Shown here: one piece after another, positions 17,175-63,629 of the stretch
How positions within the stretch are numbered: the stretch's first letter is position 1
Layout of the letters: each line of letters starts with the position of its first letter
Assembly: GCA_965202665.1 (NCBI GenBank)
Contig: OZ241841.1
Coordinates: forward strand, 2,368,001-2,432,000
Direction of reading: 5' to 3'
Source of the DNA: Candidatus Spongiisociaceae bacterium
Lineage (GTDB): Bacteria > Actinomycetota > Acidimicrobiia > Spongiisociales > Spongiisociaceae
Length of the DNA stretch: 64,000 bases
Program-made: the position numbers and the translations under genes
The notes under the pieces: model-generated
Databases searched by the model: none
What the model was told of the DNA's origin: nothing
The model's input: the letters and a program-made list of their open reading frames with translations, nothing else

Positions 17175-17191
17175 AATGTCACTCCCCGGCG

Positions 17192-21185: not shown

Positions 21186-21433
21186 CGGCGACCGCCTTTA
21201 GTGGGGTAGCGGTGGGTCCATTTGCGGGCGGCGGCGGAGCGTCGCTTCCGGTGGTAAGCCCGATGGTTTCCGAGGTGGAGGCACTGGCCGCATACGCTTA
21301 CCATCTGATGGCTGATCATCATCATCCCGCCGCATCTGCTGCAGTCGGTGATGTCACCCTCGAGCGGTTGGGGGTTCGGTGTCATCGGCGGGCGCCGTTC
21401 CGGTTCGGCCTGCGGGTTTACGGCCCGGCGCAT
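21182..21433 (-). CDS. Small putative zinc-ribbon protein (phage-like)
   Basis: CSRC...CGQC pair; ATGA-coupled to the dnaB fragment; start uncertain. Confidence 0.45.
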   Translation of the reverse strand: MRRAVNPQAEPERRPPMTPNPQPLEGDITDCSRCGGMMMISHQMVSVCGQCLHLGNHRAYHRKRRSAAARKWTHRYPTKGGRR

Positions 21434-22123: not shown

Positions 22124-22153
22124 TTGCTTTCCCCCCCCCCCCCTCTTTATCAT
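22124..22153 (+). promoter_or_regulatory. Putative promoter of the giant gene with a C13 tract in the spacer
   Basis: TTGCTT (22124-22129), 18-nt spacer containing C13 (22131-22143), TATCAT (22148-22153), ~100 nt upstream of the likely start. Confidence 0.6.
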
Positions 22154-22255
22154 ATGGCGTCTATCCGATCTAAGGGTTGGCGATTTGCGTCCTGACCTGT
22201 CCTGGTTTTAGGTCTGTTGTGCGGGTTTCCTGGGACCCGTTGGGAAAGGTTATTG

Positions 22256-25200
22256 GTGACAGGCTACTGTAAATCCGGGTATGCCGGATTTGTTGGACAA
22301 CCTGGAGTAAGGCGAAGACAGGGCAGACGAACGCTGGCCCTGGCGTTGGCGTGCGCCCTGGTTGCGTCTTTGTTTCCCAATCTTTCTCTTACGCCGGCGT
22401 TGGCGCAGGCCGCCAACAGCGCCGTTTTGACCGTCTCGCCGGCTACGGTGGACGAGGACGGCGGAGCCCAACGCATCGTCGTCACCGCCACCCTCGCGCA
22501 GGCCGACCCTGCGAATCCGATCACCGTCGACTTGGCGGTGGAGGCGGAGGCGGGCACGGGTACCGTCGAGGGGACTCATTTTACTGCGGTGGATGACTCT
22601 GATCTTCGTATCACCATCCCGGCGACCGCGACCACCGGCACCGCCTGGTTTGATTTGATTCCGGTTGACGACCTCACCCTCCAGTCAGCCAACCGTTCAG
22701 TTACGGTAACCGGCTCTTCAACTGGTTTGGGGGGCGGTTCCGTCACCGGGACGTCGGTTACCATCGACGACGACGAGGCGGCCGCCGTCAACCTCAGCCT
22801 GGACCGGACTTCGGTGGATGAGGACGCGGGGACGGTGGCGGTGAAAGTCACGGCCGCCTTCGCCTTCCCGGACGAGCAAAGGCGCGCCGCCGCCACCGAC
22901 ATAGCCGTCACGGTGGGGGCGGAATCCGACACCGCAACAGGCGGAACCGACTACGCCACGCCCTCCCCGTTCACTATCACCATCCCCGCCAACCAGACCA
23001 GCGCCACCGCCTCCTTCAACCTCCCCGTTTCCGACAACTTGGCCGCCAACCCCGACAAAACGCTGACCGTTACCGGGGTCAACCGCACCCCCGGATGGCC
23101 GGTCGCGCCCGCCTCCCTCACCATCCTGGACAACGAATCCGCCATCCGGTTGTCGCTGGACAAAACGGAAGTGTCGGAGGGGGACGGGGCGCAGACCATC
23201 ACCGTCACCGCCGCCCTGTCGGAGGGGCGCACCGAAACGACCGCCACCGAAGTCACGGTGGATGTGGTGGGGGAGTCGGGCGGTTTTGCGGCGGTGCCCC
23301 GGTTCACCATCACCATTCCCGACCGCACCCGCTCCGCCACCGGCTCCTTCACTTTCACGCCCGACGTTGATACGACGGCGGAAGGCGTGTCCAGGGTCAC
23401 CGTACAGGGAACTTCGGATCGGTTGGATGTGTATCCGGCCTACCTGTCCATCATCGACGACGACAACCTGATTACCTTGTCGGTCGACACCGCTTTGGTG
23501 GCGGAAGGGACGGCCGCCGAAGTGGAAGTGACGGCCGCCCTGCCCGCCGCAACCACCCCCCTGCCCCGGGACATGCGGGTTCGGGTGGGGGTTCTGTCCG
23601 GGTCTTCCACGGCGGTGGCGGGGGAGGACTACCAAGCCGTCCCCGATTTTGACGTGGAGATCGAAGGCGGCTCCCGCAGCGGCTCGGCCACTTTCACGCT
23701 CACCACCTTCGCCGACCAAGCGGATGAGGTTGCGGAAAACATAACTTTGGGGGTGATTTCGGTTTCACGGCGGGACCCGGACGTGGACGACCCGGACATT
23801 CCGGGGGAAACCATGGAGGCGGAAACCTTCACCGCCCTGTCCATTTTCCGCACCGAATCCGCCGACCTGCACATCACCGCCCCCCGCCTGCTGACCGTGG
23901 CCGTTTCCCCCTCCCGGGTGACCGAAGGCTCCACCACCACTTTGACGGCCTCGGCCGCCTTGCCGGAGGGCATGGATCCGATTACCGAAAACGTTGCGGT
24001 GACGGTGTCGCTGGCGGCGGACGGAACGGAGGCGGGCGGTTCGGCGGAGGCGGCTGATTTCACCCCGGTGTCCGCGGTCATCAACATCACCGCCAGCCCC
24101 GGTTCCCCTTTCACTTCAGCCTCCCCGGCGGCGACCCAGGATTTCACGCTGGTGGCCGCCTCCGACGCCGACCGGGACGATGAAACCATCAAAGTGTCGG
24201 CATCGGCTTCCGGATACGGCATCGCCTCCTCTTTCGTAACCATCGCCGACGACGGCGCCCCTCCTCCCCGCCCCGACCCTCCGGCCATCAACCTGCGGGC
24301 GGATGTGCTGCGGGTGGGGGAGGACAGCGGAACCACCGCGGTGACGGTTACCGCCGAATACGCGGACGGGGCCTCCCGCGCCGCTCCCGTCATAGTGGAA
24401 ACGGAGTTGGCGAACTACGCCGGTTACGCAACCGCCCCGGACGACTACGCGGCGGTGGCGAAATTCAACATCACCATTCCCGCCAACGCAACCAAAGCCT
24501 CGGGTTCCTTCAATTTGACGGTGGTGGACGATGCGTTGGCGGAAGGGGATGAGCGGGTGCGCATCATCGGGCGGGAAACGGCGGCCTCCCCCGGCCCGGC
24601 CACCGGTTCCATTCCGCCCGGCACGGACAGCGGCCTGACCGGATATGCGGTGAACGCGGCGGACATCGTCATAACCGACAACGACGACACCCTGTTTTTC
24701 TCCCTCACCCCCCTGTTTTTGGACGAAGCGGCGGGTGCCGCCCAACTCGCATACGAGGTGGGTTTGGCATCGGGGGTGACCCCGCTCACCGAAGACCTGG
24801 AAATAACCATCTCCGCGGCGAGCGGCACCGCCGTTTTGGGGACCGATTTCACCGCCGCCGCCCAGTGGGTGGTTTCTTTGCCCCAAAACACCCGCACCGT
24901 TTCCGGCTTTTTGGATGTGACGCTGATCGAAGACGACTTGGCGGAAGGATATGAGTTTTTCGAAACCTCGGCGGCGGCGCCGGGCCTGAAAACCTCCGCC
25001 ATTTCGGTGTTTATCAACGATGACGATCAGCGCATCAACCTGTCGGTGGATCCCTATCGGATCAGCGAAGACAGCGGTTCCGGGGCGGCTTCCCGAATCA
25101 CCGAGGTGACGGTTACCGCCTTCCTGCCCGGTTCGACGCCGGGGGTTGTCCTCCCGGGCGAGCCGGTGCGGGCCACCCCTCTCAAAATCCCGGTGTCGGT

Positions 25201-55200: not shown

Positions 55201-58200
55201 CACCGACGGGGCGACTCGGGGTGCGCCGTCCCCTCCCAGCGGCGACTTCTGGACCGACAAATCCGGCGACACTTTCACCATCAACATCCCGGCCGGGGAC
55301 CACACCGCCACCGGGACTTTTGAGTTGACCGCCCGCAGCGACGGCGACAACACCGAAGGGACGGAGACGGTAAAAGTGTCCGGGAGCGCCACCGTAGACG
55401 GGGAAGCCACCAGCGACGCGGAGGATATAAGCCTCTTGCAGCAAGGGATAGAATTGTCGGTAGTTGACGCCGACACCACCCTCGCTGGTATCCAGACGAC
55501 CCTTACAGAGGGCGCGGGAGACTCCGCGGGAGACACCAATGTGAGCATCAAGGCCGCCCTCAAGTCCGGCATACCCGCTGGCACAGGGGCGGTTACGGTC
55601 AGCGTGACGGTGACCACCCATTACACCGACAGCGGGCAACCGGTGACACATACCGGAACCATCACCATCCCCGACGGGGACACCGAAAAAACCGCCGACA
55701 TTCCGGTAAACGTGAAAGACGACGAAGTAGTCGGCGAAGGCGACGGAACTTGGATGATCGACGCCACCGCCGACGAAGGCTACCGAGTGGAAGGAACGAC
55801 GGTGGACGTTGTCGACGACGACGCCGTCGCCCATGTGGAACTGATGGTTAGCCCAAGCGCGGTAGACGAGGGTACCAGCAACCAGAGCGTATCCGTAACG
55901 GCCCAGTTCCCGGCTGGTTCGTCCACACTCACCTCCGCCACGACGGTAACCGTCGATGTGGGCGGAACGGGCACCACCGCCGGTTCCGGTACGGACTTCG
56001 ATAATCTGAATCCCGCCTCGCTAACGCTGACCATCCCCGCCGGGAGCCGGCAGTCAGAGACCAAGGCTTTCAGCGTGGACATCCTGGACGACGACGTAAC
56101 CGAAGGCCCCGAGCAAATCGCGCTGGGCGGCTCCGCCACTGGCGGCGTAGCGGTCAATGATTCCAACTTAACCATAAACGACCTGGACGACGACATAGAA
56201 ATTTCAGTGTCGCCGACGACGGTAGCGGAGCGGACCGACCCGTACGATGTGACCGTAACCGCCGAATTCGCCGGGGTAGATTCTTCCAGCAGAACCTCCG
56301 CCACCCGGGTAACAGTGGACATCACTGACGACGGCACAGCTACCCGGGGTTCATCCACCCCCACGCCCAGCGGCGATTTCGGGACTGACCAAACCAATAA
56401 CAGATTCACCATCGACATCCCGGCCGGGGATTACAACGAGACGGGGACTTTCCGGTTGACCGCTCACAGCGACGGCGACGACAATGAAGGGACGGAGACG
56501 GTAGAAGTGTCCGGGAGCGCCACCGTAGATGGGGAAAGCACCAGCGACGATGCGGAAATCAGCCTATTGGAGGACGGCATAGAGTTATCAGTGGTAGACG
56601 CCGACACCACCGTCACCGACACTCAGACGACCATTTCGGAGGGAACGGGAAGGGCCGGGGTGAGCATCCGGGCCGCTCTCCAGTCCGGTGTACCCGCCGG
56701 CACAGGGGCGGTTACGGTCGACGTGACGGTGACCACCCATTACACCGACGGCGGGCAACCGGTAGCCGAAGCCGGAACCATCACCATCCCCGACGGGATG
56801 ACCAGCGGAACCGCCGACATCATGGTGGACGTGCAGGATGACAATGTGGCTGGCCAAGGCGGCGGAACCTGGAACATCACCGCCACCGCCGACGAAGGCT
56901 ACACAGTGGCAGGAACAACGGTGGATGTGACCGACGACGACACCGCCCCCACCCAAATCGAACTGTCGATCAACCCAAGTGCGGTAAATGAAGATGCGTC
57001 GAACCAAAACATAACGGTGACGGCCAGTTTCCCGTCCGGTTCGGCCACCCTCACATCCAACACGACGGTTGCCATCACCGTAGGCGGCGGAACAGGCACC
57101 GGTGTCGCCACTCCCACTACTGACTACACCGCGAATCCATCCTCGTTCTCCGTGACAATCGATGCGGGTGATACATCGGCAACGGGGTCATTCACGGTGA
57201 CCACTGTGAACGACCAAATCACCGATGGAGCTGAGCAGGTCGCGGTAACAGGCGACTCCTCCGGGTTCACTGTCAGTTCCGCCATTTTGACCATCAACGA
57301 CACCTCCACCGCCCCTACGCAACCTCCACCTACGCAACCTCCGCCTACGCCGCCTACGCAACCTCCGCCTACGCCGCCTACGCAACCTCCGCCTACGCCG
57401 CCTACGCAACCTCCGCCTACGCCGCCTACGCAACCTCCGCCTACGCAACCTCCGCCTACGCAACCTCCGCCTACGCAACCTCCGCCTACGCAACCTCCGC
57501 CCGATGACGGCGGGACGCCCCCGCCCGACGGCGGCGATGGCGGCGGTACGACGCCTCCGCCCGACGACGGCGAAGACGGCGGGGAGGGCGGCGGCGACGA
57601 CGAAGAAGGTCAGGACAGCGAAGGCGGCGAGATTGTTGACGACGGCGAGCAGGACGGCGAGGCCGGTTCCGGCGGTTCGGGCGGCTCTGGCGGGGGCGGT
57701 TCCGCCGGGTCGCGGTGCGATGGCCGTTTCTGCGACGACGACGACAACGTCCATCAAGCCAACATCGAGAAGATGGCCGAATGGGAGATCACCTTGGGAT
57801 GCGACGCCGACAACCCGACCCTGTTCTGCCCGTCGCAGACTATCCAACGGCGCCAGATGGCCGCTTTCCTGCACCGGGCGTACACTTTCCGGTTCGGTGA
57901 ACCGCAGGCCCCGGAAGGGGTGGTCCTGACGGACGTGTCCCCCACCATCTGGTACCGCCCGTTCGCCGAATGGGTGGTGTCGGTGGGGGCTTTCGAAGCC
58001 CCGCAGGGACTGTTCCGGCCCAGGGGGGTGGTGACCAGGGCTGACATGGCGGTGATGATGGTGGCCGCTTTCCCCCATCTGCTGGCGGCGGAGGAGCCGC
58101 AGAACCTGTTCGAGGACGTGTCCGACCTGCCGGAGGATACGGTGCGGGCCATCGAAGGCCTGTACGCGGCGGAAATCACTTTGGGCTGCACCACTTCCGC

Positions 58201-60400
58201 CCCGTTGCAGTACTGCCCGGACCGGCGGGTGACCCGGGCGCAGATGGCTTCTTTCTTCGTGCGGGCTTTGAGCATCGGGGTGGAGTTGTCGTTCACGGAC
58301 GGGTCCGGCGCCGATTTGACCGAGTTGGCGGAGGACAGCGGATCCACGCCGGTGACCGTCACCGCCTCTTTGCCCACCGGGGTGACCGCCCCCGCCGCCG
58401 GGCTGGTGGTGGGCGTGAACGTTTTAGCGGGCACCGCCCGTTTGGACACCGGCATCCATTTCACCGACGAGGATTTCCGGGTTTCTTTCCCGTCCGACGC
58501 CAGTCCCCCCGCCGGGCATTCGCTGGGGATCAGCATCCCCGCCGGGGAATCATCCGGTTCGGCGGTTTTGACGGTAGTGGTGAACGACGATGACGTGGCG
58601 GAACGCGCCGTCCCCGAAACCATCAGGTTGCGGGGCGCGCCGGTGACGGTGAACCGAAGGCCGTTGCCGGTGCTGGATTCTTTCCTGGGCATAACCGACG
58701 ACGATTCGGCGATTTCTTTGAGCATCAGTTCCCGGGCCCGGGAGCAGGACGGCCACGCCGGGGCGGCCCGCGTCTCCGCCCGGTTCGCTTCCGCGGCTTC
58801 TTCTGAAATCAGGGCGGGCATCCGGGTGGTGTTGTCGTTCGCCGCCGGGTCCGGGACCGAATCCTCCGATTTCACCGCACCCCGCCGTTTCCTGAACCTG
58901 ATCATCCCAGCCGGCGAAACCGCTTCTGCGGCTTTGGCTTTGAACGGGTTGGCGGTCAGAAACGACGCCATCGCCGAAGGGACGGAGGTGATCACGGTGA
59001 GCGGCAGGGCGGGCGACTACACGGTGATACCGGCCGGTTTGTCCGTCTCAGACGACGATTCGCAGGTGAGGTTGACTTTGGTTCCAGCGTCGCTGGCGGA
59101 AGGCGGGGACGGCTCGGCGGTGGCGGTGTCGGCCGCTTTCCCATCCGGGACGGCCTCTTCCGAAATCGGTTCCGACACCGTGATTGTCCTGTCGGCGGCG
59201 GACGGAACCGCTTCTTCCGATGATTACGCATACGCCCCGTCTTCTCCCAACACGGTGACCATCCCTGCCGGCGCCCTGGCTTCTTCCACCGCCGGCCGGT
59301 TGGCCGGGTTGACGGTCGCCGCCGACGGGACCGACGAGGGGAACGAGACGATCATGGTGGGCGGCTCTTCGCCTTTGGGGACGGTTTCCCCGGTTCCGCT
59401 GACCATCACCGACGGGGGAGGGGCCCCGGTTCCGGTCGGTTTGGAGTTGGAGGTTGCGCCCGCTTCGGTGACGGAAAGAGAAGACCCCTATGAGGTTTCG
59501 GTGACCGCCCGCCTGACCGGGGTGGACGTTTCCTCCCGCACCGCCCCGGTGACGGTGACGGTGACGGTGGCCGGCGGCTCCGGTGAGAACGGGGCCGTTC
59601 TGGGCGCGGCCGGGCCGCCCCCCACCGGCGATTTCGCCGTTAATCAGCCGGGCGGGACGTTCACGATCACCATCCCCGCCGGGTCGGTTGTTTCTTCGGG
59701 GACTTTCCAACTGTCGGTGTGGGAGGACGGGGCGGACGACGAGGGTTCGGAGCGGGCGGCGGTGTCCGCTGCGGCCTCCGTGGACGGGGAGAGCCTGTCG
59801 GCCACCGCAACGCTGACGTTGTGTTCGGGCCGGTTCTGCGATGAGGACGGCAGCGTCCACGAGGCCAGCATCGAGCGGCTGGTGGAATGGGAGATAACCC
59901 TGGGTTGCGATGCCGCCGACCCGACCGTGTTCTGCCCGTCGCAGACTATCGCCCGCCGCCAGATGGCCGCTTTCCTGCACCGGGCGGTAACGTTCCGCTG
60001 GGGCGCCCCGGAGGCGCCGACCGGGGTGGTGATAACCGACGTGCCCGCCGACGCCTGGTACCGGCCGTTCGCCGAATGGGTGGTGTCGGTGGGGGCTTTC
60101 GAAGCCCCGCAGGGCGTGTTCGACCCGTCCGGGGTGGTGACCAGGGCCGACATGGCGGTGATGATGATAGCCGCTTTCCCCCACCTGTCAGCGGTCGCAA
60201 CGCCCCAAAACCGCTTCGCCGACGTGAATAACCTAACCGAAGACCAAATAAGGGCGGTAGAGGGCCTGTACGAGGCGGAGGTAACGCTGGGCTGCACCAC
60301 CACCGAACCGCTCCGTTTCTGCCCCAACCAGGAGGTAACCCGAGCCCAAATGGCCTCCTTCTTCGTAAGAGCCCTAAACCAAGCCACCCCCACCCCCTAA
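22256..60400 (+). CDS. Giant (~12,700 aa) secreted surface protein: Calx-beta/Ig-like repeats, four LRR blocks, Pro-rich linker, two SLH-like anchors
   Basis: Uninterrupted 38-kb ORF (from 22217; likely start GTG 22256 after GAAAGG). Signal peptide RRTLALALACALVASLF..PALAQA; dozens of ~120-aa repeats with DF..ITIPAG..S.S..F.L...DD...EG.ETI.V.G; LRRs; SLH-like TRAQMASFFVRA. Confidence 0.92.
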   Translation: MTGYCKSGYAGFVGQPGVRRRQGRRTLALALACALVASLFPNLSLTPALAQAANSAVLTVSPATVDEDGGAQRIVVTATLAQADPANPITVDLAVEAEAGTGTVEGTHFTAVDDSDLRITIPATATTGTAWFDLIPVDDLTLQSANRSVTVTGSSTGLGGGSVTGTSVTIDDDEAAAVNLSLDRTSVDEDAGTVAVKVTAAFAFPDEQRRAAATDIAVTVGAESDTATGGTDYATPSPFTITIPANQTSATASFNLPVSDNLAANPDKTLTVTGVNRTPGWPVAPASLTILDNESAIRLSLDKTEVSEGDGAQTITVTAALSEGRTETTATEVTVDVVGESGGFAAVPRFTITIPDRTRSATGSFTFTPDVDTTAEGVSRVTVQGTSDRLDVYPAYLSIIDDDNLITLSVDTALVAEGTAAEVEVTAALPAATTPLPRDMRVRVGVLSGSSTAVAGEDYQAVPDFDVEIEGGSRSGSATFTLTTFADQADEVAENITLGVISVSRRDPDVDDPDIPGETMEAETFTALSIFRTESADLHITAPRLLTVAVSPSRVTEGSTTTLTASAALPEGMDPITENVAVTVSLAADGTEAGGSAEAADFTPVSAVINITASPGSPFTSASPAATQDFTLVAASDADRDDETIKVSASASGYGIASSFVTIADDGAPPPRPDPPAINLRADVLRVGEDSGTTAVTVTAEYADGASRAAPVIVETELANYAGYATAPDDYAAVAKFNITIPANATKASGSFNLTVVDDALAEGDERVRIIGRETAASPGPATGSIPPGTDSGLTGYAVNAADIVITDNDDTLFFSLTPLFLDEAAGAAQLAYEVGLASGVTPLTEDLEITISAASGTAVLGTDFTAAAQWVVSLPQNTRTVSGFLDVTLIEDDLAEGYEFFETSAAAPGLKTSAISVFINDDDQRINLSVDPYRISEDSGSGAASRITEVTVTAFLPGSTPGVVLPGEPVRATPLKIPVSVAADTAGSADFTAAPDSFTITIPAGASEGSASFNLTVADDRVAEGGENIIVRAGDPFQVHSPVYTSVRSITTSSLAPGHPTVTIVDDDAEDIVLSVSRSSAAENDGPIPLTVTATLRESVARLRTAAEVTLSTSGSSAAPNADFSLTDGTGGTGPFTITIPAGQRSASADLTLSLVNDRSREGSEAVVFSGSAPTFNVVPAAPLIIFDDDTAIALSVSPAALEEDSGATSLTVTAALPPGETAPAGGPITVALTAAGDSAPGRAEEGAGKDFTAVRPDPFQITIPAGINAASVIFTLTVLNDAVSEGAETVTISGAAPGRAVSPATVTILGNDGETAALGSGGCSDGTWVADPASALVGDCQQLVAMRNLWLANPDNAGLPADHPLRLWGSGLVDSWPGVTATGGRVTGLNLSNGNLAGKIPGQISSLTALTSLNLGGNNLSGSIPSLSALTALTSLNLGGNNLSGSIPALSALTALTSLNLGGNNLSGAIPAAVTSLSSLTSLDLGGNNLSGSIPALSALTALTSLNLGGNDLSGAFPPVTALTSLEGLDVSDNKLSGPLPSAWSSLTALARLDVSGNRLTGSIPAGLGGLSALTEFGFCGNGFTGALPAGLASGAVLPGYDPAAGVGGCRRGVALRVSPDGMAEGEDGEITVTAELVGFGGEGEPGLPGLDTPVSVSVGGGTAAASDFRGAGAGGAVDNFVITIPAGSTSGKASFRLEALDDTLFEGSEFINLSGSSAGLTVFGEELFILDGDSKIALTVDPGSVTEGAAAAEITVTATLTGFGGASQPTAPTAALSVPVSVVAGTAAVGDFTPVDDFAITIPAGSTSGTGTFRLETVDDVLREGEEIISVTGPATGATASGGRLGVSPAELRVVDNEQWVRIVLPSGSFVREGQTFQRFITGGLVGFGGPGQPAFPQTTQVQLSVADSADVHGWSDSIQYFGVSRRFAIGSEVQIRAKQDELFEGPEVVTVTGTARIPATGMSVVVEPVEVALVDRESRVELSVSPAQTVREGGGAVRVAVSATLVGFGGPGQPARPEGDMAVQVWVTNGSATVSQDFATVNPFTVTIPAGKMAGSATFDLLTIDDADTEGPETVLVGGLHGVAYGPWGVLDVLGTEVLIEDNERGQKEIILSVDQLRVAEGGSDQTVTVTATLPGMEASPVLLGLNLADGTAKAANKDYTALTGNVDLLIPAGQTRAIVDVTVAIPNDTAAEQDKTVLLRAFAPFGFEASPSEFAITIADDDASITPLDPARCDDGTFVEDTSNTALIADCKALVDIRNHFTAHPANQNLPTDDPATSDVDETHVLRAWGATGYAPWPSPVVSPTRLAGRALDSMFETRDIRIWPGVTLERVGGVLRVTGINLHNQGLKGLVPVDSIHERCEEPYFSLSSTPPCTNDRGESSNFHYTARRAFPILPSAEAEANRISGTVPAQIGDLAALTRLDLGGNRLTGPLPAPVLSAGLTSLVLSGNDLALADLDVTDLTGLSELRAGGNRLTSWPVGLNANLEILDLSDTGLTGALPSGPSGVTTLTGLTYLDLSGNGFTGALLSDWGGLEELAVLVLSDNQLTGPIPATWRTLTKLERLDLGGNRLTGAISSQFRSRWDDTPGATRRLGWGSLTDLDLSGNQFSGEIPAWVGGLADLERLNLSDNDFSWGLPRLEGSTGLVYVNLSNNRLQGSVPSAWAALTGLQQLRLGGNRLSGPFPAWVGRLPDLRHLHLNDNRLTGLLPASLGDLDLIHLDLSGNRLRGPVPASWAALTGLTMLNLGGNRLTGPIPAALGGFTGLTLLDLGGNQFAGSIPAALTSLTRLRVLDLGGNRLTGPIPARIGDLSRLEKLSLGDNGLTGGLPASFSSLTELTHFDAGGNPVLWPTGGIPAGVLGVTTWPSAVDKLTFLDLSETGMASVFPAGLETLDGLTYLDLSGNRLTGPLPVAVSSLTKLRTLLASDNRFTGSVPSAWGSLSPAAGGSLSRLGFCGNGITGPLPLLLRSGVELVGFPSGARETGACAGALAVLTVSPALTGEEDGPVEVAVTAVRPEYGGPGGNLSERDTRIFLTLLGDTAVLGATGDFTFRDPNGTVFQPPQPTGRVRLTSDAARPLPEGTAADIAVTASFASGAVSSRPTRVSLRVGAEGDVATPGDTIGEGDFSYRWTGTTAPEVVIPAGQNSAAVTLRVSPFSDGKLEGTESFTIAGSTADCSLGLGRGDCSVGSTQAAIADPGSPIVAEVVIPAGKRSGTATLEVTPVDDAASEPVVEKLRVVGEAGSLPVVGTEFRIVDDESAPTEVEWTLNPTSVEESAGEIGVEVTASLADGGVRSDDTAVSFSVGKSTDSAVAGTDYQVVADFTAVIPAGTNRASAAFSLSGTADLLDEPAESLTVSVSVPAGLTADADQRTLALTDADDTPQRLVLTVDADPDTTGTQSTLAENAGTRRVTVTAAFPAGAQVSSQTRTVATATIGGQAGLRSTATRGEDFTAASQVRIVIPPGSRRGSASFDLEVIDDSVTSEGNETISVVGTITEGPAFPFDNTSLTITDNDSGIVLSITPDQGSEGSSAVSATVTAAFEAGTTPPAVPTQVTVTVGSPGDSAVRRPADDPATTDVDESQAGDFSAPATLTIVIPANTRSATAPLAFQLRDDLDVEQAETISLTGTAAGHAVSPTVFTIEASDPYPTSVILRLNVDTTHEPVAGVRTFTTSLIAAFPDGSPPLTRDLLVNASVVTVTEDTASYRSDFQPRDNLALTIPAGSTSASADFSLVILGDEETEGAETLTISGRAAGLAVVPARLTITDPLTIPDSAVLRVSPDEVSENAADHTQVITVSAELSAGVMAPAGGVTIVVTVAGGTEAGQAEEGAAKDFTATAPANISISAGQSTGSTTFRLTVKPDDIAEGDETISVSGVLSGLAATGVSDTTVIIPGNDGTIPDLNRAHCGNGTYVGNPGGNSGLVSDCQTLVDIRNHWMDNPDNADLPADHPLRTWGGRIETWAGLSFERLRIGHNHRRRVTKLELGGSVGSRIRGTLPSEVHSLEGLTHLVLKDNQLIGHIPSQLGSMNFLEVLDLRNNQLSGAIPASITSLPGGSYRFDLQELRLQNNRLSGSVPAWSSTADNYSLRHVDLSGNELTGSMAGFEHLTGLSYLDLSQNRLSGAIPADFVTRGSGALNTLRLNDNNLSGSIPNLSRLPDLKTVDLSGNRLSGSLTGLRHDHLTDLNVSDNQFSGSLPNLPSLPFLERLDLSGNRFTGLLSAWSVTQAPRLNTLDLSDNQLSGTIPSWIGRAGNLVSVDLGNNNLSGPIPPWLTSRTRISRLVLSGNQLTGLIPDSVGNMTSLTELDLHDNRFRGPVPSSLGRLRNLVGLYLDDNQLTGPIPDEIGALAFSPGSTGRLRRFSFCGNNLTGFLPGGLRNPWVHLEDSPSDSGFAYGPFANWFAPVSDCRRAVELSVDRSVSEWAARSVEVTATLAGFGGSIGRPMPDEDTEVTVSVEDGTAFAPGDYAVVNPFKITIPVGETSANGSFTLTPVNDSSDFEGDETVRVDGAGETISVTGTDLAIIDARRAIDGIIVTASPSVIPEGETTRVTITASIPDHAAPETNTQIRFRYLRTVDGTATKGTDFTDNISGEFRISPNQRSGSRDFNISATENTTAEADKTFYVYVTPYLNRDVVRFRNRIMYATVTIANNDILPALDSAICNNSAVVPAGNSALARQCRALVAIRNHWTNRLDNAGLPATHPLLDWNGSSSIETWPGVTVSIPSGGSSKRVTGLDLSADSDPNTADRISGAIPSFGWLSDLTSLDLSGNLLTGSIPAVSLPSTLTSLDLSGNQLSGSIPDRLRRLTALTSLDLSDNQLTGSIPTGIGALTALTSLDLSDNQLTGGIPTGLGALTALTSLDMSDNRLSGGIPRALGALTALIYFDLSDNLLTGDIPQELGRLNKLTTFSFCNNALTGPLPQSLRTGVTIPDFTNTYTRVQSCASVIYITASPDTATEGDSRLLRVTAELPPGRTAPAGGLAVNVSTISGTAASEIDFTPVSTVITIPEGETEKTDRLLLSVTDDSVNEPAENLFVVGSSPGYRNGVDTVTIAASDRTPATNVEWSLSRTTVTEGTSDITYEMTLVVSIPDDQSSFTTAQRIYPLFGASGSGSTAASPADYAAVTDFTGDHIILPAGQRQVTRTFSLTVKSDTLVEGDETIKVTAEAGTGRLVPTPLTITVADQDAVATVQVDTDGGTTGDQTTAAERSSPHSVSVTISLPSGATNSLGRDLVIPLTVMPGTASSSDFTAASPGSATITRGTTTSSPVTFNLTVAQDAANLRELSETISVSGSATGFTFNPAEITIPPDNKLAIIPLSVEAENANNGNPRIRYGPARTATGSSATDDHRGAYFGIRINWPAGGSHRGGSQTTHQHIPYGQSRASATNVITLSGYDDQVVNTTPPRYVTIDHTVHMRGWLFAATRALIVDDEWDRRPTGIDLTADMSTVNERAGATPVTITASFTNAAGNPAPLDTYVDIPLSAQSGSAIAGSDFRLTDAAGGPVPFDFTLRIPARQTSGSATIYLAPVADDTREMEEGLWVGARSVPSPNGFTFGNGVDPVRIAILDQTGIVLRALPDSLTEGPASSAISIIASLPDGFPTLDENLVIRNVRLRPGTASAADFTASPTGGTTLTIPAGSTTTSLLSYRVMVTDDDLVEGPETILLQGDIGPEYTAQGVLTINDETGEAPVTGVKLEFAPNPIGEGAAAQQVQVVARLGTWIPAPTSHTYTDAQGDEASATCQQDEFGVTRCEYPTPSGSGTTLVIYRPRFTPVATAAPTSHTYTNRAGNRVTISCPHDEFGVARCSHPDPTDPDQERMVSVVYRPQFRSVALPPTSHTYTNRAGNRVTIPCPHDESGVARCSYSYVDSSDPDMPQTVVVQVVYRPDPVSAARAVDTVVTASLESVAARTGVVPAALGTDFTAAPPIRVVIPAGETERRVSFHLDVKDDGVAEPEETFKLTGRADGMTIFAEPVAITGDLRKPPISLRVVPGSVSEETGTALIRVTASVDDIVRDVSSCVRRVTNDRGTPGDPSDDIQECVEFDTRQVSSPGLLSSVDLPIRVSVGEAGDTATEGTDYTAVPDFTLVLPAGRRSASAVFKIAVASDRLDEPAETITIAGSDPSVGSSPSHIPLSVSSGLLTITDSDASPVVELELDEATVAEGSGTTEVAFTVSLVDGLRSAAPLTVALGVAGADEGACETDDDAGRVNCPSQPGKARAGADFTAVPNFNVTIPAGQSAARGKFNFTVTDDRLVEGEERLTVTARLGDASATGRLSIADDDAAPSDLRLSLVPAFTTRDGPEVPMREGGLARSYLISAAVPPGQGLLSSPSTVTLSVGGGTASSNDYSVSMLPDNTVLVPAGPVTNLGPGAQPADLQVLLVVTPLSDRAVEGLESLVVSGTATGGLNVAPVTLAINDAAGSTPDRISLTLDRSEVEEGAGTVRLGVTARMFCQSGACSVLAEDRTVNLELSESLSTAAADDDFVLGSGSVTIPAGSYSGSAQLELRVLDDRLVEGNESVAVGGSAFGFQVNAATVLITDDEPAAGELDLRFNRGTVGEGDGRAPLVLTAGWPAGLSVTSDTEVSVVLGAGSAAAGIDYELLDRERFVLTIPAGRSSVSAAAGMLRLVDDRVAEGLETFEAFGFARSVDAAVPVRYKVNSAVLRIADDDPAAVKLTVDENYVLEGRRGDMTPSPAEEAVPITVTASLTGDVAGGTVVRDRDTLVRVAVGDGADRAVSGADYVVSDGLRNGVLPIVIPAGENSASAAFRMRVIDDNVAGETDWSAVSRPGGLTTVDVSRTESVSITGAVAKGRGTDFSIAVTGTEVEIWDLNDRSPTAVDLAVSPVRVTEGDARHTARLTITASLRAPPIAQPSLVCLQRSSQGACLRSYAPVVPKQPPSMVLAEDLTVPISLSADTDSEGNPSLGWATSGTDYGTPVQVSPRPATGQSGVTVVIPAGKLSGSTVVDLPIIGDILTESNVLFGPSGKELLRVGANLEGRTAEGDDSETNQELILHPHLEGWTVEGAIFEITDDDPASLQLELDKTRLEENAGSQSVRVTARVVAPDGSAGAFPEDIPLVLQWANFHQNEGDESRLSATGLAKEDHDFRLQGTAQLEDDEPVTISGPNLRATVNRSQVTEGSEVDVLLNLRFQSILGDGGANVTVSVGVAGDSAVAGTDYELVSAHFQSPLTITNGRFSVHARKGTIGANITLRFRVTDDAMHEGAEVITIGTDRGASTQLVIPANDIPPPADRKLVTIPAGSSSASAVFDLEVVDDILDEGAGEDIVFRAVGAALLGSDLSARLRIVDNDSAAETIILTATPGGSGSGPGVVSESAGADLELNMAVGFPQGSAERLEDTVVTLSVENGSADSSDYSLTFSDPDGAGPLTAGQVVIPAGETAAQVRLGPAVADDPGTADVNEAQPASADFDVTDDTAAEGDETFFIKGAAEGFAVRSETVTIRDSEPAAILLTIGSTQFAQELELAEDIHASTTGTLTLKIKAAFPESVADGDLPGTATVITLGGADGKLRERNGAVSRPATAGDYAVQSAVLDTRNTPLTLTIPANTRSAEGTIRVGLTDDQIVEGMENLQIVGSASGQVVSPAVIHIADDDTVPPAFDLSVSPLFAAEGAAAPVPVTVTARARGAARLGLDTVIQLALSPTEVGGPDFQPVAANDLRLTVPANAASGSVTFNLTMVDDNVAEGVTAVLDAAQLSGSATSPFSGEELTVAAVGQQSRVVMLDNDVAPRSIALSIPTGGVREGSETNSATVRASFPDGSPVRPVDTKVLVRIGGAVNNADEEAGAGDYAAPSNLLVTIPAGQTSGQASFDIRLVDDRLSEEPENVTLTGRAIAPYHKPYPALPQTDFTVSHAVLTITDNDVPPSFVTLQVAPVPPAGAAGASGTAAARLFTGMVREGDEVTEYTVTASFGPGAARSKNTVLTLGLGGRAASTVGLTLPNGQPIIGPDGLPATITIPGDTAVKGADFQIVDEDGDPVTDDLTLTIPAGQTRGSASFRLKVVDDSVAGENPETLTVFSTAAPPANSNPRFAVMPATVTILDNDQVSEIVLTLLDSSDQPLESVNENAGRVTVKVKASYPGTAVLGANTALNVSVNDGSAEGKGVDYTPDPADTDVTIPAGDNSVTATFDIDINDDPLREADETIRFEATVTGLQTAEFTIRPVELTIVDTLPVTITADVDSIATGVQTAVGEDSGITDVAVAVSLEAGEVAPPGGLAFTLAWAETADSDKADLGTGTGDDFTLVDGSGDPLDDATATIPEGQSSVSLTMRLKVADDRNVEPNETLTITASLADLALELTPPTLTINDNDADLTVDKATVTEGEAETITVTASVGAPAPAGGRTVAVAVADSADDPAYTAASGDYTANPSSLNVTIPAGQTSAAASFDLTAFTENTRAEDHKTLAVTGSLTDFQVDAADLTLLDNDRGITVTITDSADQPLTLTENGTPVTAKVTVALNAASNALSGNVPVAVEVGATGPGTAGRGASATDFTAASNTLNIPIAAGSTSASATVDITVAADQIAEWDEPIWFAGAAAGFTFTDGHLRIEDDDSEIAVTLNKSSAREGAAGDVTQGGVSYVRFTATASYTGAASSEMGAVQIQLNPRGSGSKPADAADYAYPTPNSIQISAGSLQTASSQNLDLRIVDDARVDDGSGADNAETLEFYGTGSYTAHGISQTVTAKSGSVSILDNDHQITLALTESGSPYTGGTEGDDLGTVSAKASFRSGVTSDRTSPTVITLHIDDVNNAGDSSDDAITAEAGDVTDPAAPITITIPAAGTESNTTALTGFSFTDDSVAELRERVLAGGTADDSLPVSDVALDIVDDDSRITLDFGTTMAEESDANAGDAMVTAKFASTAQSVEFNAATTITLAFSTEGAANAEAADFTAPAAGSEITVTIPAGSTSSSAVALTSVVLDDDPRAEGNETIAVDGTAAVAGDSVGLPVDRSYLTILDDDLQLVITHGTFQNYEDSNDVVPVKVSFDSATTYSDLTEDFTVRVSTSESDPVSARGGGADFHNRSRTLTIPAGQLNSGSFKFLYGVVIVDDTIAEPQENFLLTGTTSLPSEWGVTVTPATLYIRQSDTDIALSFGNTRAEENSDENAEDAKITASFSSATSSEISTATTVTLSFGNGTATLGSCTGTGQARTCTGDFLNPSSAITVVIPANTLTSAAKSLSGLPLVNDNVAEKNETIKVTGSSPSFGVDRTDLVVADLDSVVSFKFKSTSSNTISLNEGTAGSDVEVKAEFFYPGVTNGIGSNLDIEVVFRPGYDGDSIDDYTYSPSTPNTLTIPSTGLSSSFVALNGLTIVDDAVTEDSELFWIDGTTTTSIANIINGEITINDTDTGIELSVSPEVVVEGTTQTVTVTTGFAGVTSSTRNGNTDVTVSITGDGSTGKAKLGSAGPPIDGDFDTNKTNDQFTITIPARSVSHTGTFELTAFKEDPDLVEAAEEVTVSGAATVGTSVTASDTLQIYDKGITLTWEDSEGNPLTSVEEASGSTQVTVKATLPDGIRSTSNLVVGVNVAAGTAGLDAGTTWDVGEDFRVTYPELRSGTPAGYALGIPIAAGAGSGTATFTLLINDDEVAEGTTGETILLEAGNVTVSGSNLPATAESSLSVTDDDSDIELTFGDTKAMEDADLNAGDAEITARFNSADTSEINAITTVTLAFADGTATSGSGNDYTAPSTAITVQIPANTVSSAATSLSGLALINDTVAEPEETIVVSGTAGSHTVTGADLAVVDDDSVVTLTLTPAKLTEGGAGSDVMVAAAFPSTTTSNSIGADTVITLSVAADGSATAQAADFAYSPAQSSPDTVTIPSTATSSSTSGTLTGLTIANDAITEDLETLLVSGTPDQEVIVNTSTLTINDADNDSGISISVIPQTVAERSAAHTITVTVGFAGEVTSSTRASDTTVRVEVNGDGAAGKATFGSVTTGDFYATDNQVPVNNITYIDIIIPAGTTSATGTFQLTARDDMDDDEGAEAVTLVGSATVDGEAVSDSTDVTIVDRVITLSLADGDGNALTSLGEASGTTQITVTATLPSGLVADAGGEVVGVNVVTGNDAGTATMGAAGPTWGAGEDYRINFPAIVPAGTPAGYALGIPILAGQDSGTATFSLEINDDTIAEGLTAETILLQGSDTTVGVYTLKVSEISLGVDDDDSQIALSFGDTKASEEDGNAGDAQITASFTGATSSVIGVTTVTLSFAAGTATAGGTDFTAPTPAITVEIPANTVSSTALSLSGLSLTDDARAEGEETITVSGSSGSYTISSATLYIVDDNSVVQLTNVDGDSVPEDSDGSGVSVSAAFPAGTTASDISSDTVITLSVSDGTAMASDNDYSYGAADTVTIPANALSSSTSATLRGLSVEPDTVTEGPETVLVGGSSSLGDAAEFSLTLDDGDTGIAISVSPSTVVEGADAHDITVTAEFADVASSTRGAATTVTVDITNDGTATLGSPPPGTSNDFYTDKTGNQFTITIPARMTSHTGAFKLTAPDDADNGEGEETATVKGSATVDGNDVSDTADITILNKQVSLSLTDSEGNALTSVAEGSGSTQVTVTAALPGSVVADSGGEVVGVNVVADTAGLDDGTTWDAGEDFRVTYPAKPPGTPVGYALGVPIAAGQQTGTATFTLVVNDDAVAEGLEAENIRVRGGDVTVSSSTLSVRGAGLGIEDNNSAIELSFGDTKASESDGHAGDAMLTAAYAGATSSVISDPVTVTISFSNGTAISGPSSDYTPPVSAMTVQIPANTASSAARALSGVALRNDKRAEVEETIAVSGTATGDYMVTGTDLAVVDDDSVITLTVSKTTFEEGETVSGVTVSAKFPDGITGNDILGDTGIPVDTIITLSVSGGGTATADGNDFTYNPASPITLTIPEQSISPSVSQTVTGLVFSDDDVTEDPETLLVGGDPNVAVVVNPVVLTLNDADNDLDISVSPATVAERSDPYDVTVTAGFAGATSSTRTSPTSVAVQIGSGDTDGATRGAPSPPSGDFWTDKSGDTFTINIPAGDHTATGTFELTARSDGDNTEGTETVKVSGSATVDGEATSDAEDISLLQQGIELSVVDADTTLAGIQTTLTEGAGDSAGDTNVSIKAALKSGIPAGTGAVTVSVTVTTHYTDSGQPVTHTGTITIPDGDTEKTADIPVNVKDDEVVGEGDGTWMIDATADEGYRVEGTTVDVVDDDAVAHVELMVSPSAVDEGTSNQSVSVTAQFPAGSSTLTSATTVTVDVGGTGTTAGSGTDFDNLNPASLTLTIPAGSRQSETKAFSVDILDDDVTEGPEQIALGGSATGGVAVNDSNLTINDLDDDIEISVSPTTVAERTDPYDVTVTAEFAGVDSSSRTSATRVTVDITDDGTATRGSSTPTPSGDFGTDQTNNRFTIDIPAGDYNETGTFRLTAHSDGDDNEGTETVEVSGSATVDGESTSDDAEISLLEDGIELSVVDADTTVTDTQTTISEGTGRAGVSIRAALQSGVPAGTGAVTVDVTVTTHYTDGGQPVAEAGTITIPDGMTSGTADIMVDVQDDNVAGQGGGTWNITATADEGYTVAGTTVDVTDDDTAPTQIELSINPSAVNEDASNQNITVTASFPSGSATLTSNTTVAITVGGGTGTGVATPTTDYTANPSSFSVTIDAGDTSATGSFTVTTVNDQITDGAEQVAVTGDSSGFTVSSAILTINDTSTAPTQPPPTQPPPTPPTQPPPTPPTQPPPTPPTQPPPTPPTQPPPTQPPPTQPPPTQPPPTQPPPDDGGTPPPDGGDGGGTTPPPDDGEDGGEGGGDDEEGQDSEGGEIVDDGEQDGEAGSGGSGGSGGGGSAGSRCDGRFCDDDDNVHQANIEKMAEWEITLGCDADNPTLFCPSQTIQRRQMAAFLHRAYTFRFGEPQAPEGVVLTDVSPTIWYRPFAEWVVSVGAFEAPQGLFRPRGVVTRADMAVMMVAAFPHLLAAEEPQNLFEDVSDLPEDTVRAIEGLYAAEITLGCTTSAPLQYCPDRRVTRAQMASFFVRALSIGVELSFTDGSGADLTELAEDSGSTPVTVTASLPTGVTAPAAGLVVGVNVLAGTARLDTGIHFTDEDFRVSFPSDASPPAGHSLGISIPAGESSGSAVLTVVVNDDDVAERAVPETIRLRGAPVTVNRRPLPVLDSFLGITDDDSAISLSISSRAREQDGHAGAARVSARFASAASSEIRAGIRVVLSFAAGSGTESSDFTAPRRFLNLIIPAGETASAALALNGLAVRNDAIAEGTEVITVSGRAGDYTVIPAGLSVSDDDSQVRLTLVPASLAEGGDGSAVAVSAAFPSGTASSEIGSDTVIVLSAADGTASSDDYAYAPSSPNTVTIPAGALASSTAGRLAGLTVAADGTDEGNETIMVGGSSPLGTVSPVPLTITDGGGAPVPVGLELEVAPASVTEREDPYEVSVTARLTGVDVSSRTAPVTVTVTVAGGSGENGAVLGAAGPPPTGDFAVNQPGGTFTITIPAGSVVSSGTFQLSVWEDGADDEGSERAAVSAAASVDGESLSATATLTLCSGRFCDEDGSVHEASIERLVEWEITLGCDAADPTVFCPSQTIARRQMAAFLHRAVTFRWGAPEAPTGVVITDVPADAWYRPFAEWVVSVGAFEAPQGVFDPSGVVTRADMAVMMIAAFPHLSAVATPQNRFADVNNLTEDQIRAVEGLYEAEVTLGCTTTEPLRFCPNQEVTRAQMASFFVRALNQATPTP
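26222..27095 (+). repeat. LRR block 1 with Cys N-cap and C-cap
   Basis: C...DC..LV.MRNLW..HPL..W..WPGV cap, then LTSLNLGGNNLSGSIP repeats (near-identical 69-bp DNA units), ending FGFCGN...C. Boundaries approximate. Confidence 0.9.
28952..31228 (+). repeat. LRR block 2 (longest)
   Basis: Same cap with large insertions; >20 LDLxxNxLTGxIP repeats; ends LGFCGN...C. Boundaries approximate. Confidence 0.9.
33962..35480 (+). repeat. LRR block 3
   Basis: HCGNG..DCQTLVDIRNHW cap; LDLxxNxLSGxIP repeats; ends FSFCGN...C. Boundaries approximate. Confidence 0.9.
36221..37085 (+). repeat. LRR block 4
   Basis: ICNN..QCRALVAIRNHW cap; LTSLDLSDNQLTGxIP repeats (72-bp near-identical units); ends FSFCNN...C. 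Boundaries approximate. Confidence 0.9.
39419..39905 (+). repeat. Three tandem ~55-aa two-Cys repeats within the giant gene
   Basis: PTSHTYT..G....C..DE.GV.RC...V.YRP starting at ~39419, 39581 and 39749. Confidence 0.85.
57314..57501 (+). repeat. Coding minisatellite encoding a PTQPP / PTPPTQPP linker
   Basis: Tandem 15-bp CCTACGCAACCTCCG and 24-bp variants; followed by a Gly/Asp/Glu-rich linker. Confidence 0.95.
57712..58272 (+). other. SLH-like cell-surface anchor module 1 (internal)
   Basis: FCDDD..HQANIE....ITLGC...FCP...RRQMAAFL; VTRADMA; ITLGC..YCP..VTRAQMASFF: three SLH-like units. Confidence 0.8.
59822..60380 (+). other. SLH-like cell-surface anchor module 2 (C-terminal)
   Basis: Close paralog of 57712-58272 at both DNA and protein level. 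Confidence 0.8.
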
Positions 60401-60983: not shown

Positions 60984-61006
60984 CGAGAAGGGTAAAGGAG
61001 CAACCG

Positions 61007-63621: not shown

Positions 63622-63629
63622 TTTATATG

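What the first reader, a model, noticed from the sequence alone, without database searches (positions are those of the whole stretch)
22256..60400. ~12,700-aa wall-anchored protein displaying four plant-receptor-like LRR solenoids on a Calx-beta/Ig-like stalk
Seen: one uninterrupted ORF with a signal peptide, several dozen acidic beta-sandwich repeats (roughly 80 by length estimate, not counted), four separately capped LRR blocks in the N-terminal 40%, and C-terminal SLH-like anchors. Established: the LxxLxLxxNxLxGxIP consensus is the plant-specific LRR class of receptor ectodomains, and eukaryote-like repeats are enriched in sponge symbionts. Inference: a long Ca-rigidified multi-ligand adhesin or host-interaction filament with the LRRs held distal to the cell; I know no characterised protein with this architecture.
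Basis: partly seen in the sequence, partly recalled or inferred. Interest (0 to 1): 0.82.

Follow-up and report, generated by a model that had tools for sequence, protein, structure and literature searches.

The report
Giant wall-anchored fibre with plant-type LRRs
A likely sponge-dwelling actinobacterium has an intact 38-kb gene for a 12,714-residue protein made of about 76 calcium-binding-type domains and four repeat blocks predicted to fold like plant receptor ectodomains; it likely works as a long, wall-anchored, possibly switchable adhesin, a new variant of a known design.

Summary
One ORF (22256-60400, 12,714 aa) encodes a signal peptide, 76 Calx-beta-like domains, four capped plant-specific-class LRR blocks (8, 21, 15, 7 repeats) and two SLH-type anchors. 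It is not an artefact: five more 10,400-11,500-aa homologues with nearly the same layout are open in this genome and three related Acidimicrobiia-type genomes. The form was found in only two genera (4 of 29 family genomes; none in 400 class genomes sampled). Sponge metagenomes hold the DNA. Predicted LRR folds match plant receptor ectodomains, N-cap included, but this LRR class is common in bacteria and does not show a plant origin. New here: a C13 run lies in a promoter-like spacer, reads C12 in two other runs, and all six giants have an 11-13 C/G run upstream. The best reading is a calcium-stiffened, possibly phase-variable adhesin; ligands and expression are untested. A small LRR plus Calx-beta fusion is already published from a sponge cyanobacterium, and multi-LRR giants on other stalks are frequent. 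This scan earlier noted LRR-free Calx/SLH giants and poly-G promoters on other DNA, but not this LRR form. Verdict: new variant of a known kind.

The parts
22124..22153 (+). Promoter-like element: TTGCTT (22124-22129), an 18-nt spacer holding a C13 run (22131-22143), TATCAT (22148-22153). Candidate slippage switch; C12 would give a 17-nt spacer.
   Evidence: Sequence. One C fewer in contigs of runs X3 and X6, not in X1. Scores 8 of 12, below the scanner's threshold; 0 sites found. Upstream runs in all 6 giants.
22242..22249 (+). Shine-Dalgarno-like GGGAAAGG, 6 nt before GTG 22256
   Evidence: Sequence
22256..22411 (+). Predicted Sec-type signal peptide (aa 1-52)
   Evidence: similar leaders in the homologues
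22412..26209 (+). Ten Calx-beta-like domains forming the N-terminal tip (aa 53-1318)
26210..27091 (+). LRR block 1: N-cap, 8 repeats, C-cap (aa 1319-1612); uniform Thr/Ser/Asp/Gly face
27092..28948 (+). Five Calx-beta-like domains, one degenerate (aa 1613-2231)
28949..31222 (+). LRR block 2: N-cap, a variable insert of about 60 aa with a Cys pair (29306-29485), 21 repeats with loop-outs, C-cap (aa 2232-2989)
31223..33955 (+). Seven Calx-beta-like domains, one nested inside another (aa 2990-3900)
33956..35473 (+). LRR block 3: N-cap, 15 repeats, C-cap (aa 3901-4406); its repeats differ widely between homologues
35474..36220 (+). Two Calx-beta-like domains (aa 4407-4655)
36221..37078 (+). LRR block 4: N-cap, 7 repeats, C-cap (aa 4656-4941); missing from the 10,406-aa paralogue
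37079..57319 (+). Main stalk of 48 Calx-beta-like domains (aa 4942-11688). It has one nested domain, Cys-paired loop inserts (three tandem ~54-aa units at 39392-39913) and diverged multi-domain duplications near its end.
57320..57709 (+). Pro/Thr/Gln-rich, then acidic and Gly/Ser-rich linker (aa 11689-11818)
57710..58270 (+). First SLH-type anchor module (aa 11819-12005)
58277..59815 (+). Four further Calx-beta-like domains (aa 12008-12520)
59816..60400 (+). Second, terminal SLH-type anchor module (aa 12521-12706) and stop codon

Best explanation
The gene encodes a 12,714-residue protein with a signal peptide, 76 Calx-beta-like domains, four capped plant-type LRR blocks and two SLH-type anchors, and it likely acts as a long wall-tethered adhesin that holds its LRR binding surfaces out into the sponge matrix. 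Step 1 (inferred): Sec export, with the paired cysteines forming disulfides outside the cell. Step 2 (inferred from SLH biology): the C-terminal SLH modules bind a pyruvylated wall polymer, so the N-terminus points outward. Step 3 (inferred): seawater calcium binds the conserved acidic sites at the domain junctions and stiffens the chain; at roughly 4.5-5 nm per domain (my estimate, not measured) the 48-domain stalk would place the LRRs about 200 nm or more from the wall. Step 4 (inferred): the long blocks LRR2 and LRR3, with mixed concave faces, are the likely specific binders of host or neighbour proteins, while LRR1 and LRR4, with uniform faces, are more likely low-specificity or spacer modules. 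Step 5 (inferred): gain or loss of one C in the promoter-like spacer would change expression, letting cells vary which member of this large surface-protein family they display.
For: Shown: domain order and counts. Six open frames of 10,406-12,734 codons with a near-identical layout in 4 genomes of 2 genera, 34-52% identical in their best aligned stretches; the G001 orthologue also lies after hisA. Strain differences: 35 of 58 listed changed codons are synonymous, none creates a stop, and 41 of 64 changes are at third positions (a listed subset only). Acidic positions that align with Ca-binding motifs of CALX/NCX CBD1 are conserved (E 92%, D 91%, D 95%, E 92%, D 81%); 71 of 78 hits keep at least 5 of 7 such positions; the best solved-structure matches are CALX/NCX1 CBDs (E 4e-4). 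Calcium stiffens CBD tandems (PMC3386913, passages) and RTX adhesin extenders (PMC7493085, abstract). The anchor profile matches B. anthracis Sap SLH (E 6e-13), and a pyruvyl-transferase gene is present in G000 and in 5 of 5 relatives tested. The LRR1 model (mean pLDDT 81) matches PEPR1 and FLS2 at Z 29.6, rmsd 2.9 and 1.8, cap included; the LRR2 model's top Foldseek hits are all plant receptor ectodomains. Face entropy is 3.4-3.5 bits for LRR2/3 against 2.3-2.7 for LRR1/4. Habitat: 5 of the 17 holding runs are labelled sponge metagenome (2 studies), and X10 was laid with long pieces. Long C/G runs lie upstream of 27 of 47 surface-protein ORFs against 46 of 3,032 other frames.
Against: No ligand, expression, export or calcium binding has been shown. 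The tip is not an LRR or any recognised binding domain. The pyruvyl transferase scores 124 bits on the CsaB equivalog model, below its 213 cut-off. The promoter is below the consensus scanner's threshold; C12 against C13 was seen between runs, not within one population, and homopolymers are error-prone. One public protein record (P0070) is identical to residues 113-1611 and then leaves the frame at a G6 run. Face entropy also rises with block length, so it is a weak indicator. G004, a single-contig member of genus g4, showed no giant LRR frame, so the protein may be dispensable.
Confidence: 0.62

Rival explanations
1. Decoy or inhibitor array. The LRR blocks work like plant PGIP or receptor ectodomains: they capture host hydrolases, antimicrobial peptides or phagocyte receptors at a distance from the wall, protecting the cell rather than attaching it.
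For: The fold matches PGIP (Z 27.1) and peptide-binding receptor ectodomains. Symbiont ankyrin proteins interfere with amoebal phagocytosis (PMC11706023 and PMC4453008, passages). The genome also has short LRR plus SLH proteins with no stalk.
Against: A 48-domain stalk is costly for a decoy when stalk-less versions exist in the same genome. No ligand data.
Confidence: 0.15
2. Matrix mimic. The Calx-beta stalk itself co-assembles, through calcium, with the host aggregation factor, and the LRRs are accessories.
For: Sponge MAFp4 has 29 predicted Calx-beta domains and the aggregation factor is calcium-dependent (PMC11670116, passages). Calx-beta and LRR genes are enriched in symbiotic Acidimicrobiia (PMC11706023). 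The genome has many LRR-free Calx/SLH proteins.
Against: These repeats are divergent and Pfam detects few of them. No wreath domain was reported by Pfam. No comparison with sponge sequences was made. The LRR layout is conserved across two genera.
Confidence: 0.1
3. Steric coat or cell-cell spacer. The protein is one of many switchable fibres that shield the wall from phages or phagocytes, or link symbiont cells; the LRRs are mostly structural.
For: 46 ORFs in the genome carry this anchor, and 18 of 22 surface ORFs of 1,500 aa or more have an upstream C/G run. LRR1 and LRR4 have low-information faces, and repeat numbers vary between homologues.
Against: Four separately capped blocks at fixed positions are kept across genera, with cap identity of 58-69% to the G001 orthologue. 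That is more than a plain spacer would need.
Confidence: 0.11
4. Assembly artefact or non-expressed fusion of several genes.
For: No laid contig spans the whole gene. P0070 is frameshifted.
Against: Single-contig genome with no N. Five homologous giant frames elsewhere. Internal repeats of 300 nt or more are only 65-78% identical, so they are not collapsed copies. Contigs of X1, X3 and X6 cross the P0070 site without a gap.
Confidence: 0.02

Closest known systems
Giant calcium-stiffened extender adhesins (MpIBP of Marinomonas primoryensis, SiiE of Salmonella, RTX adhesins)
   Same: MDa size; long tandem beta-sandwich stalk; calcium at domain junctions (shown for them, predicted here); binding domains held away from the cell (PMC7493085 abstract; PMC5550230, PMC4083281 and PMC5466336 seen as search listings only).
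   Different: Those are type I-secreted Gram-negative proteins. This one has a Sec-type leader, C-terminal SLH anchors, diverged Calx-beta repeats (mean column identity 24%) and four LRR solenoids built into the stalk.
LRR plus Calx-beta gene of 'Ca. Synechococcus spongiarum' SH4 (PMC4453008)
   Same: A sponge symbiont with LRR_8 and Calx_beta domains in one gene (seven and two; passage seen).
   Different: 4,463 bp against 38,145 bp; no SLH anchor or multi-block layout reported in the passages; function untested there too.
Plant LRR receptor kinase and receptor-like protein ectodomains, and PGIP (FLS2, PEPR1, BRI1, GSO1, MIK2)
   Same: Plant-specific-class repeat, helical N-cap and predicted fold.
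   Different: No transmembrane or kinase part, so it cannot signal as they do. Four blocks sit in series on a fibre. The LRR2 insert lies right after the N-cap and is unresolved in the model.
Wall-anchored LRR adhesins of monoderm bacteria (Listeria internalins; recalled)
   Same: Signal peptide, capped LRR, Ig-like spacer and C-terminal wall anchor.
   Different: Different LRR class and anchor, one LRR block, more than ten times shorter. InlK and NEAT-LRR models score far below cut-off.
Calx-beta domains of NCX1/CALX and of sponge aggregation factor MAFp4
   Same: Best solved-structure sequence matches of the repeat profile; acidic motifs align.
   Different: Weak similarity (E 4e-4); here an extracellular bacterial stalk of 76 units.
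Promoter-spacer homopolymer phase variation (Neisseria porA and opc; recalled, and named in earlier scan notes)
   Same: An 11-13-nt C or G run between -35-like and -10-like hexamers of a surface-protein gene, with length differing between samples.
   Different: Switching and the promoter itself are not demonstrated here.

Membership tests
Plant-specific (PS) class LRR | 23-25-residue repeats with LxxLxLxxNxL followed by SGxIPxxLxxLxx (PMC4030839, passage) | tested here: met
   37 of 47 within-block periods are 23-25 aa; 33 of 51 strict and 44 of 51 relaxed matches.
Plant-specific (PS) class LRR | Fold of plant LRR ectodomains with a helical N-cap | tested here: met
   Predicted models only. 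The top 16 VIA rows are plant proteins (Z 20.8-29.6), most aligned from the cap helix onward; Foldseek for LRR2. Pfam LRRNT_2 was not hit at E<=0.01.
Plant LRR receptor kinase / receptor-like protein | Transmembrane helix, with or without a cytoplasmic kinase | tested here: not met
   No kinase family in Pfam; the strongest hydrophobic window is the leader, and the next best (1.78) lie inside Calx repeats; the C-terminus is SLH.
Island-domain LRR receptors (BRI1/PSKR type) | A folded non-LRR island interrupting the solenoid and forming a ligand pocket | tested here: inconclusive
   An insert at aa 2351-2410 is present in 6 of 6 homologues, with a Cys pair in 4 of 6, but its pLDDT is below 50 and it lies just after the N-cap.
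Calx-beta domain (PF03160) | Profile match and an Ig-like beta-sandwich | tested here: met
   Above the Pfam cut-off in 4 of 14 segments; repeat profile hits CALX/NCX1 CBDs; flanking domains modelled as all-beta. Most repeats are too divergent for Pfam.
Calx-beta domain (PF03160) | Acidic Ca2+ ligands (E385, D446, D447, E451, D498-D500 in NCX1 CBD1; PMC3386913) | tested here: met
   DD..E..E and IxDDD motifs align with CALX CBD1 and are conserved at 37-95% per position. Transfer to NCX1 numbering is from memory; the E385 equivalent lies outside the aligned stretch.
Calx-beta domain (PF03160) | Actual Ca2+ binding and stiffening | not testable with these tools
   Needs ITC, SAXS or a structure.
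SLH-anchored surface proteins | SLH repeats with TRAE-like motifs | tested here: met
   PF00395 above cut-off in both modules; TRRQMA/TRADMA/TRAQMA motifs; Sap and SbsB hits.
SLH-anchored surface proteins | CsaB-type pyruvylation of a wall polymer | tested here: inconclusive
   PF04230 above cut-off in G000 and 5 of 5 relatives; TIGR03609 124 bits against a cut-off of 213.
RTX / type I-secreted adhesins | C-terminal RTX repeats and type I secretion signal, no Sec leader | tested here: not met
   No RTX family in Pfam or NCBIfam; N-terminal leader and C-terminal SLH instead.
Promoter-homopolymer phase variation | Homopolymer in the -35/-10 spacer, variable in length | tested here: inconclusive
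   Run and hexamer-like flanks present; C12 in X3 and X6, C13 in X1; scanner threshold not reached.
Promoter-homopolymer phase variation | Run length changes expression within a population | not testable with these tools
   Only contigs were available, no raw reads.

The most novel reading that the evidence does not exclude
A sponge symbiont displays a phase-variable array of plant-receptor-like ectodomains on a calcium-stiffened fibre several hundred nanometres long. LRR2, with its Cys-paired island, and the fast-changing LRR3 would recognise specific host peptides or small molecules the way plant receptor kinases do, making this a bacterial host-recognition device that sets host specificity.
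Probability: 0.2. Interest if true: 0.8.

Novelty: new variant of a known kind. Interest (0 to 1): 0.52.

Why it matters
How sponge symbionts attach to their host and avoid being eaten is an open question, and it has mostly been approached by counting eukaryote-like domains in fragmented genomes. This is a whole, conserved gene that joins two of the enriched domain types (LRR and Calx-beta) to a wall anchor. Its four capped LRR blocks of 290-760 aa can each be expressed alone, which makes the ligand question directly testable. Proteins of this length did not appear among the hits of the large protein collection (longest hit 7,916 aa), which may be why the family has gone undescribed. If the C-run is a working switch, phase variation would extend to the largest surface protein of a sponge symbiont. 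The general design (anchor, stiff stalk, distal binding domains) is ordinary.

Tried and rejected
Artefact or repeat collapse: rejected. Recent transfer from plants: not supported, since the nearest Atlas clusters are bacterial or unrecorded and GC content matches the genome; no tree was built, because repeat arrays align ambiguously. Tat export: rejected, since the twin arginine is not kept in the homologues. Type III effector LRR families (XopAC, XopAE, XopL, SlrP) and internalin K matched only far below their cut-offs through generic LRR similarity. Promoter scan: 0 sites at its threshold. Expression: no RNA holder listed, which is no evidence either way. The structural search of the Calx domain was swamped by the LRR, so the Calx fold rests on sequence profile and model secondary structure. 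Naming the family failed: cluster members carried no names and the search on a recalled genus name gave 0 occurrences in the 12 papers listed. Earlier-finding look-ups by sequence and by relatives returned nothing. A protein-level self-search for stalk super-repeats printed only the self hit; the duplication evidence is the DNA-level result. No complex prediction was run, as no candidate partner is known.
Full report
Observation. The + strand holds one open frame from 22196 to 60400. Read from GTG 22256, which follows a purine-rich ribosome-binding-like site, it gives 12,714 aa, about 1.29 MDa and pI 4.1 after the leader. The genome G000 is one contig of 2.77 Mb with no N, and this is its longest ORF. 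Its class is inferred as Acidimicrobiia: the best genome-collection match to LRR1 (L014, 63% identity) is titled uncultured Acidimicrobiia bacterium. I could not name the family.

Anatomy. An HMM built from the protein's own repeats finds 78 hits at E<1e-4. Two domains are interrupted by a complete nested domain (aa 2989-3264 and 7026-7309), giving 76 domains. The order is 10 Calx, LRR1, 5, LRR2, 7, LRR3, 2, LRR4, 48, linker, SLH, 4, SLH. Pfam sees Calx-beta above its cut-off in 4 of 14 segments, LRR families in the four blocks, and SLH in both anchors. A profile of 53 of the repeats finds CALX and NCX1 calcium-binding domains as its best solved structures, weakly (E 4e-4). The acidic motifs that align with theirs are the most conserved positions of the repeat, and 71 of 78 hits keep at least 5 of 7 of them. 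The NCX1 ligands and calcium-induced stiffening are described in PMC3386913 (passages); transferring residue numbers from CALX to NCX1 is from memory.

The LRR blocks. There are 51 motif-matched repeats; 44 have the relaxed and 33 the strict plant-specific segment (definition from PMC4030839, passage). Each block has a Cys-paired N-cap and an FCxN...C end cap, conserved in the homologues. AlphaFold models from six-sequence alignments reach mean pLDDT 81 (Calx-LRR1-Calx) and 80 (LRR2). The first matches PEPR1 and FLS2 at Z 29.6, with the alignment starting in the cap helix; the first non-plant chain comes at rank 17, Z 20.5. The listed Foldseek matches of the second are all plant receptor ectodomains. 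This is a class assignment, not an origin: 2,846 of 7,989 scored proteins of 518-2,000 aa match LRR1 at E<=1e-40, most of the 120 listed being unnamed metagenomic records with a minority from plants, and the nearest Atlas clusters with taxa on record are bacterial. LRR1 and LRR4 have uniform Thr/Ser/Asp/Gly faces; LRR2 and LRR3 are more mixed, and LRR3 differs widely between homologues. LRR2 has an insert of about 60 aa after its cap, with a Cys pair in 4 of 6 homologues; it is unresolved in the model, so an island-domain role is open.

The anchor. The anchor profile matches Sap and SbsB SLH domains. A polysaccharide pyruvyl-transferase gene is present in G000 and 5 of 5 relatives tested, but it falls below the CsaB equivalog cut-off. 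The second anchor is 77% identical in DNA to the first, and the distal stalk contains multi-domain duplications at 65-75%, so the extra length over the homologues likely arose by old internal duplication.

Is it real? Open frames of 11,483 and 10,766 codons (G001), 10,646 (G013), 10,430 (G009) and 10,406 (paralogue in G000, three LRR blocks) share the layout. The 11,483 frame follows hisA, as in the window, and is 44-76% identical by segment. Contigs of four runs were laid; X1 may be the source sample and is not independent. No contig spans the gene; the longest is 14,346 nt with no differences. Listed in-gene indels of X6 and X10 keep the frame (multiples of three, or compensating pairs). Two rows do not: a net one-base loss at 40922-40928 in contigs whose depth differs from the main ones, and a one-base loss at 41732 at the depth of the X1 contig that table 8 shows crossing that site without gaps. 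I read both as secondary alignments of repeats but did not prove it, and 29 further indel rows were not shown. Of 64 listed substitutions that I classified (from the 80 rows shown, leaving out 16 rows), 41 are at third positions; 35 of 58 changed codons are synonymous and none creates a stop. Against the frame: record P0070 is identical to residues 113-1611 and then shifts frame at the G6 run 27082-27087, while contigs of X1, X3 and X6 cross that site without a gap. A homopolymer error is the likelier cause.

Distribution and habitat. A query spanning Calx domain 10 and the LRR1 cap matched 5 of 29 family genomes at E<=1e-15, all in genera g1 and g4; giant frames occur in 4 of the 29. Many family genomes are fragmented, but several single-contig genomes of g2 and g7 also had no match. 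In 400 genomes drawn across the class, 12 matched LRR1 at E<=1e-25, in frames of at most 1,396 aa; only 4 candidates per genome were scored. So it was not found in those searched, which is not proof of absence. Seventeen runs from 7 studies hold part of the gene: 5 are labelled sponge metagenome, 4 marine metagenome, 8 carry coded organism names. The wider design recurs: of 66 proteins of 5,500-7,916 aa, 33 have three or more LRR blocks, and 7 of these also carry several copies of this Calx repeat, one named from Ca. Palauibacter. Only P0006 and P0008 combine LRR, Calx and SLH, and both are fragments of this same family.

Earlier notes of this scan on poly-G promoters in this genome led me upstream. 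There lies TTGCTT, an 18-nt spacer with C13, then TATCAT (22124-22153). It scores 8 of 12 and the scanner found no site. Contigs of X3 and X6 have one C fewer; X1 does not. All 6 giants have an 11-13 C or G run within 370 nt upstream of their frame. Genome-wide, C/G runs number 96 at length 8, 1 at 9, 0 at 10 and 66 at 11-13. Such runs lie near the start of 27 of 47 surface-protein ORFs against 46 of 3,032 other stop-to-stop frames, which include non-genes. This fits slippage-based expression switching but does not show it.

Mechanism. Shown: the architecture, its conservation, the acidic motifs, the predicted LRR fold and the C-run. Inferred: export, wall binding, calcium stiffening, outward display, ligand binding and switching. 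I put the adhesin reading at 0.62, a decoy or inhibitor role at 0.15, a passive coat at 0.11, aggregation-factor mimicry at 0.10 (sponge MAFp4 has 29 Calx-beta domains; PMC11670116, passages) and artefact at 0.02.

What is known. LRR and Calx-beta genes are enriched in symbiotic Acidimicrobiia (PMC11706023, passages). One 4,463-bp gene with seven LRR_8 and two Calx_beta domains is reported from a sponge cyanobacterium (PMC4453008, passages). Calcium-stiffened extender adhesins are well studied (PMC7493085, abstract). A survey of giant bacterial proteins mentions LRR-bearing giants in Clostridia and has no occurrence of 'calx' or 'sponge' (bioRxiv 10.1101/2023.11.21.568195, passages). Ten literature searches were run, of which bore on this architecture, and none listed a description of it. 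I read no supplements, and gene tables there could list it; most subscription journals are not in the library.

Verdict. A real, conserved and apparently undescribed architecture, built from known parts on a known plan. It works like a giant extender adhesin; it is neither a plant receptor nor an RTX adhesin. New variant of a known kind; interest 0.52.

Noticed in passing
G000:C1:1141275-1172495 (-): A 10,406-codon paralogue with three LRR blocks, one anchor and a C12 run upstream. Its aligned stretches are 65-84% identical in DNA to the window gene, highest at aa 7013-8114.
   Followed up: partly
G000:C1:2167845-2183337 (+): Two overlapping frames (1,537 and 3,630 codons) with Calx and LRR blocks behind a C13 run. 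The first has no anchor; the second has its own leader and an anchor.
   Followed up: partly
G000, whole genome: 46 ORFs carry the same Cys-containing SLH-type anchor, including five stalk-less LRR plus SLH proteins of 636-799 codons or similar. C/G run lengths skip 10 and peak at 11-13.
   Followed up: partly
window 39392-39913 (+): Three tandem ~54-aa units, each with a Cys pair, inserted in one Calx domain. There are 2 motif copies in G001, 1 each in G009 and G013, and none in the paralogue. Other Cys-paired loops decorate the stalk.
   Followed up: partly
window 31220-32047 and 43331-44182 (+): Two cases of a whole Calx domain nested inside another, which would form side branches. The first is kept in the G001 orthologue.
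   Followed up: partly
window 19584-21883 (+): An HSDR_N-domain ORF and an unannotated stretch sit between hisA and the giant gene; in G001 the giant gene follows hisA directly.
   Followed up: no
window 60480-61681 (+): Two tandem paralogous HTH_17 (excisionase-like) genes directly after the giant gene.
   Followed up: no
window 61858-64000: Low-GC end (47% over 62001-64000): a 399-aa coiled-coil-like membrane ORF, then on the - strand a PIN-domain gene and an AAA_21 (AbiEii-like) ATPase, possibly a defence or toxin-antitoxin module.
   Followed up: no
window 158-19243: Ordinary neighbours: cytochrome c maturation genes (thioredoxin-like, ccmF, ccmB), a glgC-like nucleotidyltransferase and his genes.
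   Followed up: no
G001, G004, G009, G013: Each also has other Calx-rich giant frames (7,254, 8,551, 8,344 and 9,515 codons), like the 8,083-codon LRR-free frame in G000.
   Followed up: no
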